The position numbers and the translations under genes were made by a program. A DNA stretch of 64,000 nt, taken from Escherichia coli O157 typing phage 15. Positions 31,729 to 35,054 of this stretch are shown one piece after another (position 1 is the stretch's first letter; each line of letters opens with the position of its first letter). Under the pieces are notes generated by a model. That model was given only the letters and a program-made list of their open reading frames with translations. It had not been told where the DNA came from and did no database searches. The stretch lies in the sequence record KP869113. One strand, written 5' to 3'.

Positions 31729-32003
31729 ATTAACATTTTAAAGGGTACTCATTGCATTTAAGCCAAGCCCCATAAGGGATACCCTTTAGAATGTTGCCCA
31801 CCTTATTAATCATACCGTGGGCTAGTACGCCAAATTCTTTGATGAGGGATTGGAAGACCTCACTGGTGTTTAGCCTATCAAGCTACTGCCAGAAAAACAT
31901 TGTCGTTTGCATTTATTTTAAATTTGCAAAATAGACGCTACGCAACGAAAACTAAGGTTACTATAAAGTAGTCACATCTCAATGTCAACAACTTTATTGA
32001 AAT
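31729..32003 (-). ncRNA. Structured 275-nt spacer in tRNA array (candidate small RNA and/or internal promoter)
   Basis: No tRNA, no long ORF; hairpins AAGGGTA..TACCCTT and TTTGCA..TGCAAA. Confidence 0.25.
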
Positions 32004-32079
32004 TGGTACTGGTAGGTGGAATCGAACCACCGATGTTCCCTTATCAGGGGAGTGTTATAACCTTCTTAACTATACCAGC
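32004..32079 (-). tRNA. tRNA-Ile (anticodon GAU)
   Basis: Acceptor GCTGGTA/TACCAGT, T-arm GGTGGTTCGATTCCACC, anticodon loop CTGATAA, CCA. Confidence 0.65.
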
Positions 32080-32235: not shown

Positions 32236-32311
32236 TGGTAGAAGTGGAGGGATTCGAACCCATCGCCTGTCAGATTAAAAGTCTGCCGCATCACCATTCT
32301 GCTACACTTCC
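32236..32311 (-). tRNA. tRNA-Lys (anticodon UUU); atypical T-stem, paralog of 30495..30570
   Basis: Acceptor GGAAGTG/CACTTCT, anticodon loop CTTTTAA, T-arm ATGGGTTCGAATCCCTC with only 3 canonical pairs. Confidence 0.5.
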
Positions 32312-32317
32312 ATTAAA

Positions 32318-32457
32318 TTATCTTTGTAGATAAGCTACCCAGACTTGCTTAAGGTCTGTAGCGATGTGCCTTTTTGGGTTTAAATCTAGAATTTACCCTT
32401 TCACCCTTTGTGGTCGCATACTCACAGGTAAGCTTAATAACTTATCTACAAAGATAA
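32318..32457. repeat. 17-bp perfect inverted repeat (TTATCTTTGTAGATAAG / CTTATCTACAAAGATAA) enclosing a 106-nt core
   Basis: Arms at 32318-32334 and 32441-32457; core has no tRNA and no ORF. Confidence 0.6.
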
Positions 32458-32511
32458 TTACCAGACCGTTGTTTATCATCTTAAGTGCTACCATTACACC
32501 AACTCGACATC

Positions 32512-32536
32512 TGCCGAGTGAAGGAATCGAACCTTC
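32512..32536 (-). pseudogene. tRNA-like 3' fragment (T-arm plus acceptor 3' strand) with no identifiable 5' half
   Basis: Canonical T-arm GAAGGTTCGATTCCTTC followed by ACTCGGC, but no complementary acceptor strand, D-arm or anticodon arm upstream. Confidence 0.3.
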
Positions 32537-32740
32537 GCCTTTTCTTTACCGGAGAAATAGATTGTTTAAGTTTTGCTGTAAACGGTCTTCTGTAAATTTG
32601 TTGAGCCAGACCAAGTTTTAAATTTTTCAAAATTAAATTGGCTTGAAATTTTAAATAACTTGCTGTATTTGGTCTTCTGCTCCTTTAAAGAATACTCGTA
32701 AGAACCCTTTAAGGGAGGGGCTAAATAGCCCTCTCAAAAT

Positions 32741-32818
32741 TGGCGGTTACGAAGGGATTTGAACCCTCATCATCTCCCGTGACAGGGGAGTATTTTAACC
32801 AAATTAAACTACATAACC
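32741..32818 (-). tRNA. tRNA-Asp (anticodon GUC)
   Basis: Acceptor GGTTATG/CGTAACC, anticodon stem CTCCC/GGGAG loop CTGTCAC, T-arm GAGGGTTCAAATCCCTT, CCA. Confidence 0.7.
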
Positions 32819-33057: not shown

Positions 33058-33141
33058 ATGTTTAGTATTACCAGACCGTATATTTCAATTTTTTCCGCTA
33101 AAAATTTAATAAATATTGCTGTAAACGGTCTTCTGTAAATT
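33058..33141 (-). repeat. Inter-tRNA spacer hairpin element (ACCAGACCGT ... ACGGTCTTCTG family)
   Basis: Stem arms AGACCGT/ACGGTCT around an AT-rich loop; minus strand also reads TTTACAGAAGACC (-35-like). Confidence 0.5.
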
Positions 33142-33218: not shown

Positions 33219-33308
33219 ATTCTTAATGACCAGACCAAATATCTTCTTTGTCCGATTAACTTTCAGATGAGTAGATTAAGTTTGCTGTAATTGGTCTTCT
33301 GTCAAAAC
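33219..33308 (-). repeat. Inter-tRNA spacer hairpin element, second copy with compensatory changes
   Basis: Arms AGACCAA/TTGGTCT replace AGACCGT/ACGGTCT of the first copy, preserving pairing; minus strand reads TTGACAGAAGACC. Confidence 0.5.
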
Positions 33309-33638: not shown

Positions 33639-35054
33639 TTACCAGATATAACGGTCAATCATTACTGCTTTGAGCATTACACTGATTGGGTCAAACTTCT
33701 CACCACCAAGCAGAGCTTTTAAAGTGGCTGGAGAGAACCCTGATACCATTGCTACACCGTTATCCTTAACAGATACTTCGCAAGTACCATTACGGTTTGC
33801 TAAGTACCAGAATACCAGTTGTGGCATCTCATATCCAGCTTTTTTGTACTTACTCTGAATTGCTTCAAAGTTTGTACGACCGTTAGCTCCATCAACCTGA
33901 TTAAACTCCATATCGGAGAAGATGATAAGCTTACTTGGCATATCTTTCTGAGTCAAGTTGTTTCTTTTACCTGTTTCAAGAATGCGGTCAAAAGCTGCTT
34001 GTAAGTTAGTTGAGCCATATTCAACGTGTCGCATCACCTGACGATGACGGTTTCGTAAATCACCACTCAGTTCGATGAAGTGAGGGTTTGTTGAATAAAC
34101 CATCAACTCATTCTTAAAGCAACCTGTATTGCGTTCTGCTACATACAAGGCAAGTGATACACCAATATCCAGAGCAGTAATGGAGCCAAAATTCACCCAA
34201 GACATTGAACTTGATACATCAGACATACACAAGATGTTTTCACCTTCTGCCATCCAGTTTGGTAGTGCTTTCCACTGCTCATTAGCAACATCTGCATTAC
34301 CATACTTGACAGATTTAATCACATCGTATGGGTAAACAGCACCAGCGTTAATCTTAGTCTCACCTTTTGATAAGGACTCGATGTAAGCTTTGTAACGCTC
34401 TCCATCTTTACGGTTAAACAGTTTTTGGTAACGTGCAGCAGCAAGTGAAGGAATCTTACTGTAGTCAATCTTACCAAACTCATTAGCAGAGATTTTTTGC
34501 TCAACTGTATCAGATAGTGCAGACAACAGTGTGCGGTACTCTTTCTCACTCAAGTTGGCAAACTTGCAGAAACGTTTTACAAACTGCTTATGACGTGGTT
34601 TGACTCGTGGTAACCACTTAGCCGCCAAACCTGCTGTTGCAGGGTCTAGTAATGCTGCTTCTAAATGTTTGAAGGCATCTGTCTCGAAACGAGTACCTAC
34701 GAAGATTTTGAAGTCATCAAAACGACCAAGTTCTGCAATCTTATCCATAATGCGAAGAACCTGCGTAGACTCTAAAACTTTGTCTTCAATCGCTTGAAGT
34801 AAAACAGCTCTGAAGGCTTTACGCTCACCCATACCTTCTCGTACATCTCGCATATGCAGTAAAATACGAACTGCAACATCAACATCCTCACGCAAAGCTT
34901 TGTAGAACAGGTCTGGTAAGATTTCTACATTGCTACGGCTTGAACCAGCAGCTTTGTAAAAGTCTACAAGAGCAGACATTGATGAAGTATGGTTTACAGC
35001 ACCATTTTCAGTTCGACCTGCATGAAGGTGCGCATGTTTAAATAACTCGCTCAT
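33639..35054 (-). CDS. vWA-domain protein with MIDAS motif and about 270-aa helical N-terminal domain (possibly Ro60/TROVE-like)
   Basis: C-terminal half has DxSxS MIDAS motif (MSDVSSSM) followed by hydrophobic strand typical of vWA fold; N-terminal half is helix-rich; immediately upstream of the tRNA array on the same strand. Confidence 0.55.
   Translation of the reverse strand: MSELFKHAHLHAGRTENGAVNHTSSMSALVDFYKAAGSSRSNVEILPDLFYKALREDVDVAVRILLHMRDVREGMGERKAFRAVLLQAIEDKVLESTQVLRIMDKIAELGRFDDFKIFVGTRFETDAFKHLEAALLDPATAGLAAKWLPRVKPRHKQFVKRFCKFANLSEKEYRTLLSALSDTVEQKISANEFGKIDYSKIPSLAAARYQKLFNRKDGERYKAYIESLSKGETKINAGAVYPYDVIKSVKYGNADVANEQWKALPNWMAEGENILCMSDVSSSMSWVNFGSITALDIGVSLALYVAERNTGCFKNELMVYSTNPHFIELSGDLRNRHRQVMRHVEYGSTNLQAAFDRILETGKRNNLTQKDMPSKLIIFSDMEFNQVDGANGRTNFEAIQSKYKKAGYEMPQLVFWYLANRNGTCEVSVKDNGVAMVSGFSPATLKALLGGEKFDPISVMLKAVMIDRYIW

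What the first reader, a model, noticed from the sequence alone, without database searches (positions are those of the whole stretch)
32312..32536. 17-bp perfect inverted repeat enclosing a 106-nt core, next to an orphan tRNA T-arm fragment
TTATCTTTGTAGATAAG (32318-32334) and its exact reverse complement (32441-32457) bracket a 106-nt segment with no tRNA or ORF. About 55 nt further on lies a canonical T-arm plus acceptor 3' strand (32512-32536) with no matching 5' half. Together this looks like a small structured RNA or mobile insertion that may have disrupted a tRNA gene, or a split or permuted tRNA-like RNA.
Basis: seen in the sequence. Interest (0 to 1): 0.5.

Follow-up and report, generated by a model that had tools for sequence, protein, structure and literature searches.

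The report
Phage tRNA-mimic RNAs beside a Ro60-like gene
The "orphan" tRNA fragment and the long hairpin belong to a conserved set of small structured RNAs, one of them a tRNA look-alike, encoded just downstream of a phage gene whose protein resembles the RNA-binding Ro60 ring, so they look like a previously unmapped viral version of the Ro60/Y-RNA system.

Summary
The window is a FelixO1-like phage (Felixounavirus). All 28 tRNAs are on the minus strand. The finding lies in a conserved 429-nt gap between tRNA-Asp and tRNA-Lys.

**Observation.** Both features are real. Read on the minus strand, though, the T arm is not orphan. Its acceptor 3' strand pairs with a complementary 5' strand 4 nt downstream, and a canonical D arm follows.

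**What the T arm belongs to.** This acceptor-closed, circularly permuted tRNA-like domain (hairpin, T arm, closed acceptor hairpin, D arm) has the architecture of bacterial YrlA Y RNAs. It sits inside a conserved "handle": AGR-helix, CAGCAA, complementary strand, G.
- The handle occurs four times here (Y1-Y4), within 1.2 kb downstream of a 471-aa DUF2828 protein on the same strand.
- That protein's model matches only Ro60/TROVE structures over its full length.
- Handle RNAs occur in 39 of 75 distant DUF2828 phage loci: 61 on the gene strand, 3 on the other.
- A model built from the Felix-group copies of Y4 finds full-length relatives there, and 31 of 32 pairs covary.

**The inverted repeat.** It closes a separate 149-nt structured RNA (M3). 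Its stem covaries, and it is confined to Felix-like phages.

**Still inferred.** Protein binding and function are inferred, not shown.

**Side lead.** The short handle RNAs closely resemble Dictyostelium Class I RNAs.

The parts
33639..35054 (-). Ro60-like protein gene (471 aa; DUF2828 + DUF7788/vWA with an intact MIDAS motif DxSxS), directly upstream of the tRNA cluster on the same strand
   Evidence: ORF. Pfam PF11443 and PF25043. PHROG 850 'RNA-binding protein'. AF2 model pLDDT 86.9. The Foldseek top 11 PDB hits are all Ro60/TROVE (2i91, 2nvo, 9l5y, 9kop). Invariant D279, S281, S283, T349, D381.
33224..33304 (-). Y1: short handle RNA in the tRNA-Glu/tRNA-Met spacer (UGAC-AGA-AGACCAA-UUA-CAGCAA ... 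UUGGUCU-G-GUCA)
   Evidence: R1 model 40.8 bits.
33065..33138 (-). Y2: short handle RNA in the tRNA-Met/tRNA-Asn spacer
   Evidence: R1 model 51 bits.
32600..32682 (-). Y3: short handle RNA (GAGC-AGA-AGACCAA-AUA-CAGCAA ... UUGGUCU-G-GCUC) enclosing an A/U-rich hairpin
   Evidence: Weak Rfam RF01414 match at 32607-32674. Not listed in the R1 search of the window.
32455..32595 (-). Y4: 141-nt handle RNA carrying the tRNA-like domain.
   Evidence: Fold z = -4.8. Alignment and pair counts. Family model R1 and covariation.
32573..32588 (-). Y4 handle, 5' side: helix strand AGACCGU, then UUA, then the conserved single-stranded CAGCAA
32462..32469 (-). Y4 handle, 3' side: helix strand ACGGUCU plus the conserved G. 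The outer 4-bp helix strand GUAA follows at 32458-32461.
32541..32557 (-). Anticodon-arm-like ('V') hairpin UUUCU-CCGGUAA-AGAAA, preceded by CUAU
   Evidence: (Rfam tRNA aligns it as the anticodon arm).
32520..32536 (-). T arm GAAGG-UUCGAUU-CCUUC
   Evidence: (invariant).
32502..32519 (-). Closed acceptor-like hairpin: ACUCGGC (32519-32513), loop AGAU (32512-32509), GUCGAGU (32508-32502); 7 bp
   Evidence: Three of 7 pairs are compensatory within Ounavirinae. All 7 covary family-wide.
32485..32499 (-). D arm GUGU-AAUGGUA-GCAC, preceded by U8-G9 equivalents at 32501-32500
32312..32460 (-). It abuts Y4 upstream and tRNA-Lys downstream.
   Evidence: Model R2 finds no copy outside Felix-like phages.
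32438..32459 (-). M3 stem, 5' arm (one arm of the inverted repeat)
32316..32337 (-). M3 stem, 3' arm (the other arm of the inverted repeat)
32335..32361 (-). M3 internal hairpin CUAC-AGAC-CUUAAGCAA-GUCU-GG-GUAG, which resembles a miniature handle. In type-B relatives it reads AGACC-CUU-UAGCAA-GGUCU-G.
   Evidence: Pair 106/122 (A4) and pair 110/126 (A7) are compensatory.
32236..32311 (-). Flanking tRNA-Lys(UUU), 4 nt downstream of M3
32741..32818 (-). Flanking tRNA-Asp(GUC), at the upstream end of the 429-nt gap

Best explanation
The finding covers parts of two neighbouring non-coding RNAs. Both belong to an array of structured RNAs encoded among the phage's tRNA genes, just downstream of a Ro60-like protein gene and on the same strand.

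**Y4 (32455-32595, minus strand).** Y4 is a Y-RNA-like molecule of the YrlA type. A conserved 'handle' closes a circularly permuted tRNA-like domain.
- The handle is a 4-bp outer helix, an AGA/G internal loop, a 7-bp helix that begins AGR and ends YCU, a single-stranded CAGCAA, and a trailing G.
- The tRNA-like domain is an anticodon-arm-like hairpin, a T arm, an acceptor stem closed by a 4-nt loop, and a D arm.

**Y1-Y3.** These are three shorter RNAs with the same handle but no tRNA-like cargo.

**M3 (32312-32460).** It is a separate, lineage-specific structured RNA closed by a near-perfect duplex of about 23 bp.

**Proposed mechanism.**
1. The RNAs are made as part of the long tRNA-cluster transcript. 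(Inferred.)
2. They are released by the enzymes that mature tRNAs. RNase III is the likely enzyme at the long M3 duplex. (Inferred.)
3. The Ro60-like ring protein binds the handle. (Inferred by analogy with Ro60 and Y RNAs.)
4. The cargo, here a tRNA mimic, tethers or decoys tRNA-recognising factors. This would contribute to the counter-defence role reported for the Ro60-like protein (gp130) of the Felixounavirus Bas63. I infer that gp130 is the ortholog of the protein encoded here. (Inferred.)

**Shown here:** the RNA structures, their covariation, the handle family, its tight strand-specific linkage to DUF2828 genes, and the Ro60-like fold of the protein.

**Not shown:** expression as discrete RNAs, protein binding, processing sites and biological role.
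For: **Context.** The window is a Felixounavirus. All 28 tRNAs are on the minus strand. The 429-nt Asp-Lys gap is kept in Felixounavirus, Mooglevirus and Suspvirus.

**tRNA-like domain.**
- The minimum-free-energy fold gives the four arms inside a closing stem, z = -4.8.
- In 11 Ounavirinae sequences 97.2% of cells pair. The acceptor hairpin changes from ACUCGGC/GUCGAGU to ACACG/CGUGU to ACCCUUC/GAAGGGU, with 3 of 7 pairs compensatory.
- A strict descriptor (T arm, then closed acceptor hairpin, then D arm) hits the window once and shuffled sequence never.

**Partner protein.** The 471-aa DUF2828 protein ends 1,044 nt upstream of Y4 on the same strand. Its AF2 model (pLDDT 86.9) has only Ro60/TROVE structures as its top 11 PDB matches, over about 500 aligned columns.

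**Handle.**
- There are 4 copies in the window against 0.17 expected. Both helices covary among the copies.
- In 75 distant DUF2828 loci (38-47% protein identity) the handle descriptor gives 61 hits on the gene strand in 39 loci. It gives 3 on the other strand and 1.6 in shuffles. Most hits lie within 400 nt of the gene.

**Family.** A covariance model built only from Felix-group Y4 copies finds 15 full-length hits with E < 1e-3 in 12 distant loci, all on the gene strand. In that alignment 31 of 32 pairs show compensatory change. Cells pair at 91.6%, against 56% in shuffles and about 43% with slid partners.

**Link to known Y RNAs.**
- The Rfam YrlA model gives sub-threshold but significant hits on relatives: L034 39.2 bits, E = 4e-5; L079 28.7 and 25.2 bits.
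- The order V-T-AS-D, the YUAY before V, and 'same strand within 4 kb of Ro60' are the published YrlA features (PMC4201824).
- Eight relatives encode N-CCA right after the acceptor 3' strand. This fits the RNase P cleavage and CCA end seen for M. smegmatis YrlA.

**Literature.** Bas63 gp130 is a Ro60 structural homolog directly upstream of that phage's tRNA genes and counters the ppl defence. Its authors only guessed that some annotated tRNAs might be Y RNAs (PMC11482910).

**M3.** The stem and internal helices covary.
Against: - There is no direct evidence of expression, processing or protein binding.
- The canonical Ro60-binding motif GNCGAA(N)G is not conserved. A GGCGAAG at the hairpin/T-stem junction varies among close relatives.
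- The Rfam YrlA model does not hit the window copy even at E <= 10. Relatives stay far below the gathering score of 69.
- The partner protein is DUF2828, not a Pfam TROVE protein. The link to Ro60 rests on a predicted fold (TM 0.5-0.65).
- Natural isolates lack parts of Y4 or M3 (SP116, ESCO49), so the RNAs are dispensable for growth on those phages' isolation hosts.
- The R1 model did not list Y3 in the window.
- M3 has no relatives outside Ounavirinae, and its role is the weakest part of the account.
- Alignment A6 was fitted to the model, which inflates pair counts somewhat.
Confidence: 0.65

Rival explanations
1. The handles and the M3 duplex are cis-acting processing or stability elements of the polycistronic tRNA precursor. 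They would be leader-trailer helices or RNase III/E/P guides, acting independently of the Ro60-like protein. The tRNA-like domain would simply recruit RNase P to cut the precursor.
For: - The elements sit in tRNA spacers.
- In some distant loci the handle encloses a canonical-order tRNA-like sequence, like a leader-trailer helix (L058 5734-5834, L067 5758-5854).
- The M3 stem is a near-perfect duplex of 22-24 bp, the classic RNase III substrate length.
- N-CCA in many acceptor loops implies processing.
Against: - In many distant loci the handle RNAs flank the DUF2828 gene directly, often with no tRNA beside them (for example L028, L033, L037, L064, L075).
- An invariant single-stranded CAGCAA plus the AGR/YCU-G flanks looks like a specific protein-binding site, not a generic nuclease site.
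- The descriptor found no handle copies elsewhere in the window's tRNA cluster (27.6-32.3 kb), where 22 tRNAs lie.
Confidence: 0.2
2. Y4 is a genuine circularly permuted (split) tRNA gene. RNase P and 3' trimming would open the acceptor loop to give a two-piece tRNA held together by the handle. That tRNA would be charged and used in translation (anticodon GGU, Thr, in relatives).
For: - All tRNA elements are present: U8, A14, G18-G19, the T-loop UUCGAUU, G53-C61 and a 7-bp acceptor.
- Many relatives have canonical 7-nt anticodon-like loops with U33 and a purine at 37: CUGGUAA, CUGUUAA, UUCAUAA, CUACGAA.
- Eight relatives encode discriminator plus CCA.
- One GenBank record annotates a 131-nt tRNA-Thr(GGT) here.
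Against: - The window copy has C33.
- Several close relatives have a 6-nt loop (CGGUAA), and others have CUUAUAA or ACUUUCA, so the loop is not under decoding constraint in this lineage.
- The break lies at position 26/27, where an extra helix and about 23 nt of single strand are inserted. No known tRNA tolerates this (my own knowledge).
- The window copy lacks CCA and has a closed tetraloop.
- The phage already encodes tRNA-Thr(UGU).
Confidence: 0.08
3. The elements are decayed remnants of tandem tRNA genes and recombination scars in a recombination-prone tRNA array, with no function of their own.
For: - tRNA arrays here recombine through shared T-loops and repeats. The SP116 deletion joins the Y4 T-loop to the tRNA-Lys T-loop.
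- The warpig deletion lies between two handle repeats.
- Y4 is dispensable in some isolates.
Against: - Compensatory changes keep every helix across genera and across phages whose partner proteins share only about 40% identity.
- The T and D arms are invariant within Ounavirinae.
- The same architecture recurs next to DUF2828 genes, on the gene strand, in unrelated phage genomes.
Confidence: 0.03
4. One reading: the inverted repeat marks a small mobile insertion (MITE-like) that disrupted a tRNA gene and left an orphan T arm.
For: There are perfect terminal inverted repeats of 17-22 nt around a core of about 100 nt. The core differs strongly between two groups of relatives, types A and B.
Against: - It is single-copy in the window (model R2) and has no match in 5,426 E. 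coli genomes.
- It is present at the same site in all three genera examined (Felixounavirus, Mooglevirus, Suspvirus). Among the fetched genomes that keep this part of the gap, none lacks it; SP116 lost it in a larger deletion.
- The arms co-vary to keep pairing.
- The T arm is not orphan and belongs to the neighbouring RNA.
Confidence: 0.02

Closest known systems
YrlA-type bacterial Y RNAs (Salmonella, Mycobacterium and mycobacteriophage; Chen et al. 2014, PMC4201824; Rfam RF02553)
   Same: - The design is modular: a protein-binding stem formed by the 5' and 3' ends, plus a tRNA-like domain in the order V, T arm, closed acceptor stem-loop, D arm.
- YUAY precedes V (CUAU here).
- It is encoded on the same strand within 4 kb of a Ro60-type gene.
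- Relatives with a 7-bp acceptor plus CCA parallel M. smegmatis YrlA, which RNase P cuts and which carries CCA.
   Different: - The GNCGAA(N)G Ro-binding motif is replaced by a different handle (AGR helix, CAGCAA, YCU-G).
- The partner is a DUF2828 protein, recognisable as Ro60-like only by fold.
- The 'V' hairpin looks like an anticodon arm followed by a 4-nt variable loop.
- The Rfam model does not reach its threshold (no hit on the window copy; 22-39 bits on relatives, against 69).
- The RNAs are interleaved with real tRNA genes.
Deinococcus radiodurans Yrn1 / Ro60-Y RNA-PNPase (RYPER), and Thermus phage phiLo Ro60 with Yrl1/Yrl2 (PMC12135203)
   Same: A Ro60-family ring protein has adjacent small RNAs that combine a binding stem with an effector module. 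A phage-encoded example is already known. Canonical-order tRNA-like cargo (D, anticodon arm, T, with the handle at the acceptor position) in some relatives mirrors the Yrn1 topology.
   Different: Those RNAs carry the CGAA-type motif and bind a TROVE-annotated Ro60. No effector is known for the Felix-type system, and no binding data exist.
Bas63 gp130 (PhageMaP preprint, PMC11482910)
   Same: Same phage genus and same gene position, directly upstream of the tRNA stretch. The Ro60-like fold was noted there, and the gene counters the ppl defence. That gp130 is the ortholog of the protein encoded here is my inference from genus and position.
   Different: The authors only suggested that some annotated tRNAs might be Y RNAs. 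The RNAs mapped here lie in unannotated spacers and are not the annotated tRNAs.
Dictyostelid Class I RNAs (Rfam RF01414; Kjellin et al. 2021, PMC7919456)
   Same: This applies to the short handle RNAs (Y1-Y3 and relatives):
- length of about 60 nt;
- a terminal covarying stem of 6-7 bp;
- a 5' end AG... and a 3' end ...CUGU;
- the motif (U)UACAGCAA directly after the 5' stem strand.

The Rfam model hits six phage modules, and nothing else in the sequences searched, at 16.6-30.7 bits.
   Different: - The scores are below the gathering score (41.5).
- There is one nucleotide less between stem and CAGCAA.
- Class I RNAs are eukaryotic Pol-transcribed genes with a DUSE promoter.
- Their known direct binder is an RRM protein (Rnp1A/CIBP).
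- I could not check whether Dictyostelium has a DUF2828 protein.
Circularly permuted tRNA genes (Cyanidioschyzon merolae and others) and two-piece tmRNAs (from my own knowledge, not tested here)
   Same: The 3' tRNA half is encoded upstream of the 5' half, with the acceptor ends joined by a short linker. Some relatives encode CCA in that linker.
   Different: - The break point is at position 26/27.
- No splicing-endonuclease motif or ligation route is evident.
- The loop is not constrained as an anticodon in this lineage.
- ARAGORN reports no permuted tmRNA.

Membership tests
YrlA-type Y RNA | tRNA-like domain in the order V, T arm, closed acceptor stem-loop, D arm, enclosed by a stem formed from the 5' and 3' ends | tested here: met
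YrlA-type Y RNA | Encoded within about 4 kb of a Ro60 ortholog, on the same strand | tested here: met
   The gene at 33639-35054(-) ends 1,044 nt upstream of Y4. The Ro60-like fold is supported by Foldseek. Caveat: the protein is Pfam DUF2828, not TROVE.
YrlA-type Y RNA | Conserved GNCGAA(N0-1)G motif near the 5' end | tested here: not met
   The only match (GGCGAAG) is at the hairpin/T-stem junction and varies among close relatives (GGAGAAG, GGUGAAG). The conserved 5' motif is CAGCAA instead.
YrlA-type Y RNA | Rfam RF02553 gathering score (69 bits) | tested here: not met
   There is no hit on the window copy at E <= 10. Relatives score 39.2, 28.7, 25.2 and 22.6 bits.
YrlA-type Y RNA | Bound by Ro60; carries tRNA modifications (pseudouridine 55, dihydrouridine) | not testable with these tools
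   Needs immunoprecipitation and modification mapping.
Ro60 / TROVE protein (for the neighbouring gene) | HEAT-repeat ring plus a C-terminal vWA domain with a MIDAS motif | tested here: met
   AF2 model pLDDT 86.9, pTM 0.86. Full-length Foldseek matches to 2i91, 2nvo, 9kop and 9l5y with TM up to 0.65. Invariant DxSxS...T...D.
Ro60 / TROVE protein (for the neighbouring gene) | Sequence-level membership (Pfam TROVE, or a hit to solved Ro60 sequences) | tested here: not met
   Pfam gives DUF2828 and DUF7788 only. Neither phmmer nor a 40-sequence profile against PDB sequences finds Ro60.
Canonical tRNA gene | Cloverleaf in canonical order, detected by ARAGORN or by Rfam tRNA at 29 bits or more | tested here: not met
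   ARAGORN finds none in 32312-32740. Rfam tRNA gives 22 bits, partial (model positions 7-64).
Functional circularly permuted tRNA | Constrained 7-nt anticodon loop with U33, and a route to rejoin or hold the halves | tested here: not met
   The window has CCGGUAA (C33). Close relatives have a 6-nt CGGUAA, CUUAUAA or ACUUUCA. The rejoining route is not testable.
Dictyostelid Class I RNA (for Y1-Y3) | About 60 nt; terminal 6-7 bp stem; 5' AG and 3' CUG(U); UACAGCAA next to the 5' stem strand | tested here: met
   Direct reading of the modules against the published description and the Rfam consensus. In the window the 3' end reads CUGG, not CUGU.
Dictyostelid Class I RNA (for Y1-Y3) | Rfam RF01414 gathering score (41.5 bits) | tested here: not met
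   Scores of 16.6-30.7 bits on six modules.
Mobile element (MITE / IS) | Multiple copies, or presence/absence polymorphism with empty sites | tested here: not met
   Model R2 finds only the one copy. There is no E. coli genome match. It is present at the same site in all three genera examined.
RNase III processing stem (for M3) | Near-perfect RNA duplex of about 20 bp or more | tested here: met
   22-24 bp, conserved in length in both sequence types. Cleavage itself is not testable here.

The most novel reading that the evidence does not exclude
The 'CAGCAA-handle' RNAs found here next to DUF2828 (Ro60-like) genes in many phages may be the same RNA class as the Class I RNAs of dictyostelid social amoebae. 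Those RNAs are abundant and developmentally regulated. Their function is unknown, and they are reported to be unique to Dictyostelia.

If so, Class I RNAs would be Y-RNA-like partners of a eukaryotic DUF2828/Ro60-like protein. The handle with modular cargo (empty, permuted tRNA mimic, canonical-order tRNA mimic, or other) would be a second, cross-kingdom branch of the Ro60/Y-RNA system.
Probability: 0.35. Interest if true: 0.9.

Novelty: new variant of a known kind. Interest (0 to 1): 0.74.

Why it matters
- **It places the missing RNAs of a known protein.** The Ro60-like protein of Felix-type phages (Bas63 gp130) was reported to counter a bacterial defence system (ppl). Its presumed RNA partners were never located. 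They are mapped here in unannotated tRNA spacers, some currently mis-annotated as a hypothetical protein or as a 131-nt tRNA.
- **It defines a recognisable RNA signature.** The signature is an AGR helix, CAGCAA and YCU-G. It marks a large, previously uncatalogued family of phage non-coding RNAs with modular cargo, found next to DUF2828 genes in diverse phages. No Rfam family reaches its threshold on them. This makes the DUF2828 branch of the Ro60 family experimentally tractable.
- **It bears on tRNA mimicry in phage-host conflict.** The family includes tRNA mimics with anticodon-like loops and encoded CCA ends, which is relevant to decoys or adaptors for tRNA-targeting defences.
- **It raises a testable partner for Class I RNAs.** If the resemblance to Dictyostelium Class I RNAs is real, it offers a testable protein partner for an RNA class whose function has been open since its discovery.

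Tried and rejected
- **Rfam.** Searches of the region at gathering score and at E up to 10 gave only a partial tRNA match and chance-level hits. There was no YrlA hit on the window copy.
- **tmRNA.** ARAGORN found nothing there. The 29-bit Rfam permuted-tmRNA match at 31878-32062 overlaps tRNA-Ile and was dismissed.
- **Promoter or terminator reading.** Counts do not exceed shuffles. The plus-strand 'terminator' at 32518-32538 is just the T arm read backwards. The TTTACA/TTGACA before three handles is not kept in distant loci.
- **Plus-strand 85-aa ORF (wV8 gp48).** Rejected because of frameshifting indels among close relatives.
- **CUUAA/UUAAG helix in the single-sequence fold.** Not conserved (D1-2, Sf19, Mordin), so it was dropped from the model.
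- **Levitt-pair (15:48) covariation.** Position 15 is an invariant A while the candidate position 48 varies freely, so there is no support.
- **Protein sequence against solved structures.** Neither a single sequence nor a profile detects Ro60. Only the fold comparison does. The single-sequence AF2 model was too poor to use.
- **M3 outside Ounavirinae.** Nothing found.
- **Host origin of Y4+M3.** No match.
- **Dictyostelium DUF2828 protein.** I could not check for one. The AlphaFold-database library was unavailable, and Avesson 2011 is not in the library. Burroughs and Aravind 2016 and the 2020 Annual Review are not held either.
- **Bas63 record.** I guessed its accession wrongly. The orthology of the window protein to Bas63 gp130 therefore rests on genus and gene position only.
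Full report
**1. Where we are.**
- The 3 kb around the finding is 95-98% identical to FelixO1/wV8-type phages of the genus Felixounavirus.
- ARAGORN finds 28 tRNA genes in the window, all on the minus strand.
- The finding lies in a 429-nt stretch without a predicted tRNA. It is bounded by tRNA-Asp (32741-32818) and tRNA-Lys (32236-32311).
- A gap of about 430-450 nt is present in 228 of 251 matching phage records. It is kept in Felixounavirus, Mooglevirus and Suspvirus.
- Everything below is read on the minus strand, the strand of the tRNAs.

**2. Checking the observation.**
- The inverted repeat is real. It has 17 perfect pairs and extends to 22 nt at 95% complementarity (32438-32459 with 32316-32337).
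- The T arm and acceptor 3' strand are real.
- The claim that no 5' half matches is wrong. After the T arm GAAGG-UUCGAUU-CCUUC comes ACUCGGC, a 4-nt loop AGAU, and then the exact partner GUCGAGU. UG and a canonical D arm GUGU-AAUGGUA-GCAC follow.
- The 289-nt stretch folds with z = -4.8. It forms a multi-branch tRNA-like domain inside a closing stem, followed by the long inverted-repeat hairpin.

**3. The tRNA-like RNA (Y4, 32455-32595).**
- From 5' to 3' it has the following parts:
  - an outer 4-bp helix (UUAC/GUAA) and an AGA/G internal loop;
  - a helix AGACCGU/ACGGUCU and a single-stranded UUACAGCAA;
  - a hairpin UUUCU-CCGGUAA-AGAAA preceded by CUAU, then a 4-nt linker;
  - the T arm, the closed 7-bp acceptor hairpin and the D arm.
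- In 11 distinct Ounavirinae sequences 97.2% of cells pair.
- The acceptor hairpin is kept through three different sequences: ACUCGGC/GUCGAGU; ACACG/CGUGU with a UACG loop; and ACCCUUC/GAAGGGU. The T and D arms never vary.
- The hairpin loop is not constrained like an anticodon in this lineage: CCGGUAA, a 6-nt CGGUAA, CUGGUAA, CUUAUAA, ACUUUCA.
- In Mordin and Mijalis the acceptor loop reads G-CCA-AACA, a discriminator plus CCA.
- The order (V, T, closed acceptor, D) is the published architecture of YrlA-type bacterial Y RNAs. So is the YUAY before V. Those RNAs lie on the same strand within 4 kb of a Ro60 gene (PMC4201824).

**4. The neighbour is Ro60-like.**
- Directly upstream of the tRNA cluster, on the same strand, is a 471-aa ORF (33639-35054).
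- Pfam sees only DUF2828 and DUF7788. PHROGs calls the family 'RNA-binding protein'.
- Sequence searches against solved structures find nothing.
- An AlphaFold model built on 40 homologs (pLDDT 86.9, pTM 0.86) has Ro60/TROVE structures as all of its top 11 PDB matches: Xenopus Ro60, Deinococcus Rsr and the Thermus phage phiLo Ro60. They align over about 500 columns with TM up to 0.65. Only isolated vWA domains follow.
- The MIDAS residues of the vWA domain are invariant in the family.
- A 2024 preprint noted independently that Bas63 gp130 is Ro60-like, lies directly upstream of the tRNA genes and counters the ppl defence. Its authors only speculated that some annotated tRNAs might be Y RNAs (PMC11482910).
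- That gp130 is the ortholog of the window's protein is my inference from genus and gene position.

**5. A repeated handle.**
- The motif AGAAGACC-N4-ACAGCAA occurs four times in the window against 0.17 expected. All four are on the minus strand and lie between the Ro60-like gene and tRNA-Lys:
  - Y1, 33224-33304;
  - Y2, 33065-33138;
  - Y3, 32600-32682;
  - Y4, 32455-32595.
- In each copy the same two helices form and covary:
  - outer helix UGAC/GUCA, UUAC/GUAA, UUGC/GCAA, GAGC/GCUC;
  - inner helix AGACCGU/ACGGUCU or AGACCAA/UUGGUCU.
- Y1-Y3 are short (74-83 nt) and carry no tRNA-like cargo.

**6. The family is much wider than Felix-like phages.** I fetched 75 loci encoding distant homologs of the protein (38-47% identity).
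- A handle descriptor was defined as AGR-N4, 1-4 nt, CAGCAA, then a perfect complement followed by G.
  - It gives 61 hits on the gene strand in 39 loci.
  - It gives 3 hits on the other strand and 1.6 in shuffles.
  - The helices all differ, and most hits lie within 400 nt of the gene.
- A strict descriptor for 'T arm, closed acceptor hairpin, D arm' hits 9 of these loci. Every hit is on the gene strand and none overlaps an ARAGORN tRNA. It has zero hits in shuffles.
- A covariance model built only from the Felix-group Y4 alignment finds 15 full-length matches with E < 1e-3 in 12 loci (best 78.8 bits). Of 47 matches at E <= 1, 46 are on the gene strand.
- On that alignment, which is fitted to the model, 31 of 32 pairs show compensatory change. 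Cells pair at 91.6%, against 56% in shuffles and about 43% with slid partners.
- The Rfam YrlA model gives significant but sub-threshold matches on relatives: 39.2 bits with E = 4e-5, then 28.7 and 25.2 bits. It gives nothing on the window copy.
- Eight family members encode N-CCA directly after the acceptor 3' strand. Others, like the window, close the stem with a tetraloop.
- The handle carries diverse cargo:
  - nothing (47-64 nt);
  - a permuted tRNA-like domain;
  - canonical-order D, anticodon and T arms, with the handle in place of the acceptor stem;
  - another conserved motif.

**7. The inverted-repeat RNA (M3, 32312-32460).**
- M3 abuts Y4 upstream and tRNA-Lys downstream.
- Two sequence types exist. 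Type A is the window and wV8. Type B is DaR-2019a, SWJM-02, JLBYU32, Mooglevirus and Suspvirus.
- Both keep an outer stem of about 23 bp and three or four internal hairpins.
- The stem has compensatory pairs 5/149, 13/141, 20/134 and 25/129. Interior helices covary too: 58/96, 63/91 and 106/122 in type B.
- Its 3' internal hairpin resembles a miniature handle. In type B it reads AGACC-CUU-UAGCAA-GGUCU-G.
- A model of M3 finds nothing in the 75 distant loci. Y4+M3 has no match in E. coli genomes.
- M3 is therefore a real, lineage-specific structured RNA and not a mobile element. A conserved, near-perfect duplex of 22-24 bp suggests RNase III processing. That is an inference.

**8. How it most likely works.**
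- Shown here: the structures, the covariation, the linkage to the gene and the fold of the protein.
- Inferred by analogy with Ro60 and Y RNAs:
  - the ring protein binds the handle;
  - the cargo recruits or decoys other factors, here tRNA-recognising ones;
  - the RNAs are cut out of the tRNA-cluster transcript by RNase P, RNase III and exonucleases.
- Promoter-like sites lie upstream of the gene and of the cluster, at 35123-35094, 33620-33592 and 33529-33500. They are not above chance.
- Natural deletions show that the RNAs are accessory. In SP116 the Y4 T-loop is fused to the tRNA-Lys T-loop, and ESCO49 has a different deletion.

**9. Comparison and novelty.**
- Y4 works like a YrlA RNA, but it fails two defining tests of that family: the GNCGAA motif and the Rfam threshold. 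Its partner is also a distinct branch of the Ro60 fold.
- I therefore file it as a new variant of a known kind.
- No paper in the searchable library maps these RNAs.

**10. Side lead.**
- The Rfam model of Dictyostelium Class I RNAs hits six short handle modules, exactly at their ends and on the gene strand. It hits nothing else in the sequences searched. Scores are 16.6-30.7 bits.
- The reported E-values are multiplied by 4,227 families. For this one family they are roughly 1e-5 to 1e-3.
- The published Class I features match the phage consensus AG-R-N4, NN(U)A-CAGCAA ... N4-Y-CU-GU. Those features are about 60 nt, a start AAG, a 6-bp covarying terminal stem, the motif CCUUACAGCAA beside the 5' stem strand, and an end CUGU.
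- Class I RNAs have no known function and are reported to be unique to Dictyostelia. One of four proteins pulled down with them (DDB_G0281243) is uncharacterised.
- I could not test whether Dictyostelium encodes a DUF2828 protein.

Noticed in passing
window 32600-32682, 33065-33138, 33224-33304; L057 7692-7749; L064 3960-4017; L079 7387-7445 and 7937-7991; L082 5888-5943: The short handle RNAs match the defining features of Dictyostelid Class I RNAs: about 60 nt, an AG... start, a ...CUGU end, a covarying terminal stem, and UACAGCAA beside the 5' stem strand. They are the only places hit by Rfam RF01414 in the sequences searched (16.6-30.7 bits, below the 41.5 threshold). Class I RNAs have no known function and were reported as unique to Dictyostelia.
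   Followed up: partly
L058 5734-5834, L067 5758-5854, L091 8520-8616, L024 3133-3233, L040 5734-5829, L027 1265-1374: The same handle carries different cargos in distant phages. Some have canonical-order D, anticodon and T arms with the handle replacing the acceptor stem (ARAGORN calls two of them tRNA-Thr and tRNA-Asn(att)). Others have an unrelated conserved cargo, CCUUUCYGGAGGGGAAAGCAAAAACUCGCC.
   Followed up: partly
L010 1027-1082 (Mordin), L091 7680-7817 and 8736-8841, L079 7792-7925 and 10482-10614, L095 3647-3789 and 5508-5691, L067 7563-7618: In about eight family members the acceptor loop begins with discriminator plus CCA, implying that it is opened to give a tRNA-like CCA end. In L095 5508-5691 a roughly 60-nt insert follows the CCA. 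Many 'V' hairpins there have canonical anticodon-type loops (CUGUUAA, UUCAUAA, CUACGAA, CUGUAAA, AUGAUAA).
   Followed up: partly
L013 905-945 (Salmonella phage SP116); L014 660-710 (ESCO49); L015 (warpig): These are natural deletion variants. SP116 fuses the Y4 T-loop to the tRNA-Lys T-loop and so loses the acceptor hairpin, D arm, M3 and most of tRNA-Lys. In warpig the match resumes at the Y4 handle directly after tRNA-Met, which suggests a deletion between the repeated Y2 and Y4 handles. ESCO49 lacks tRNA-Asp, Y3 and most of Y4. The array recombines through its repeats and is dispensable for growth on those phages' isolation hosts.
   Followed up: yes
window 32364-32621 (+); L001 1770-2027; L016 506-636: Public annotations cover these RNAs with doubtful features. 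One is an 85-aa 'hypothetical protein' (wV8 gp48) on the opposite strand; it is broken by 1-nt indels in close relatives. The other is a 131-nt 'tRNA-Thr GGT' in phage REP5.
   Followed up: yes
L022-L096 (for example L022, L024, L026, L027, L034; tmRNA in L039 and L041; permuted tmRNA in L036; group I introns in L034 and L082): Across very different phages the DUF2828 Ro60-like gene sits immediately beside tRNA arrays on the same strand. tmRNA genes or group I introns are sometimes nearby, suggesting a general functional tie between this protein and phage tRNA clusters.
   Followed up: partly
window 32690-32740 (-): A conserved G+C-rich hairpin (GAGAGGGCUAUUUAGCCCCUCCC) and a CCCUUAAAGGG palindrome lie between tRNA-Asp and Y3. 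They are nearly invariant across genera. Their role is unknown; they could be a processing or termination signal.
   Followed up: no
window 32518-32538 (+): The terminator-like site reported by the consensus scan on the plus strand is simply the Y4 T arm read on the wrong strand.
   Followed up: yes
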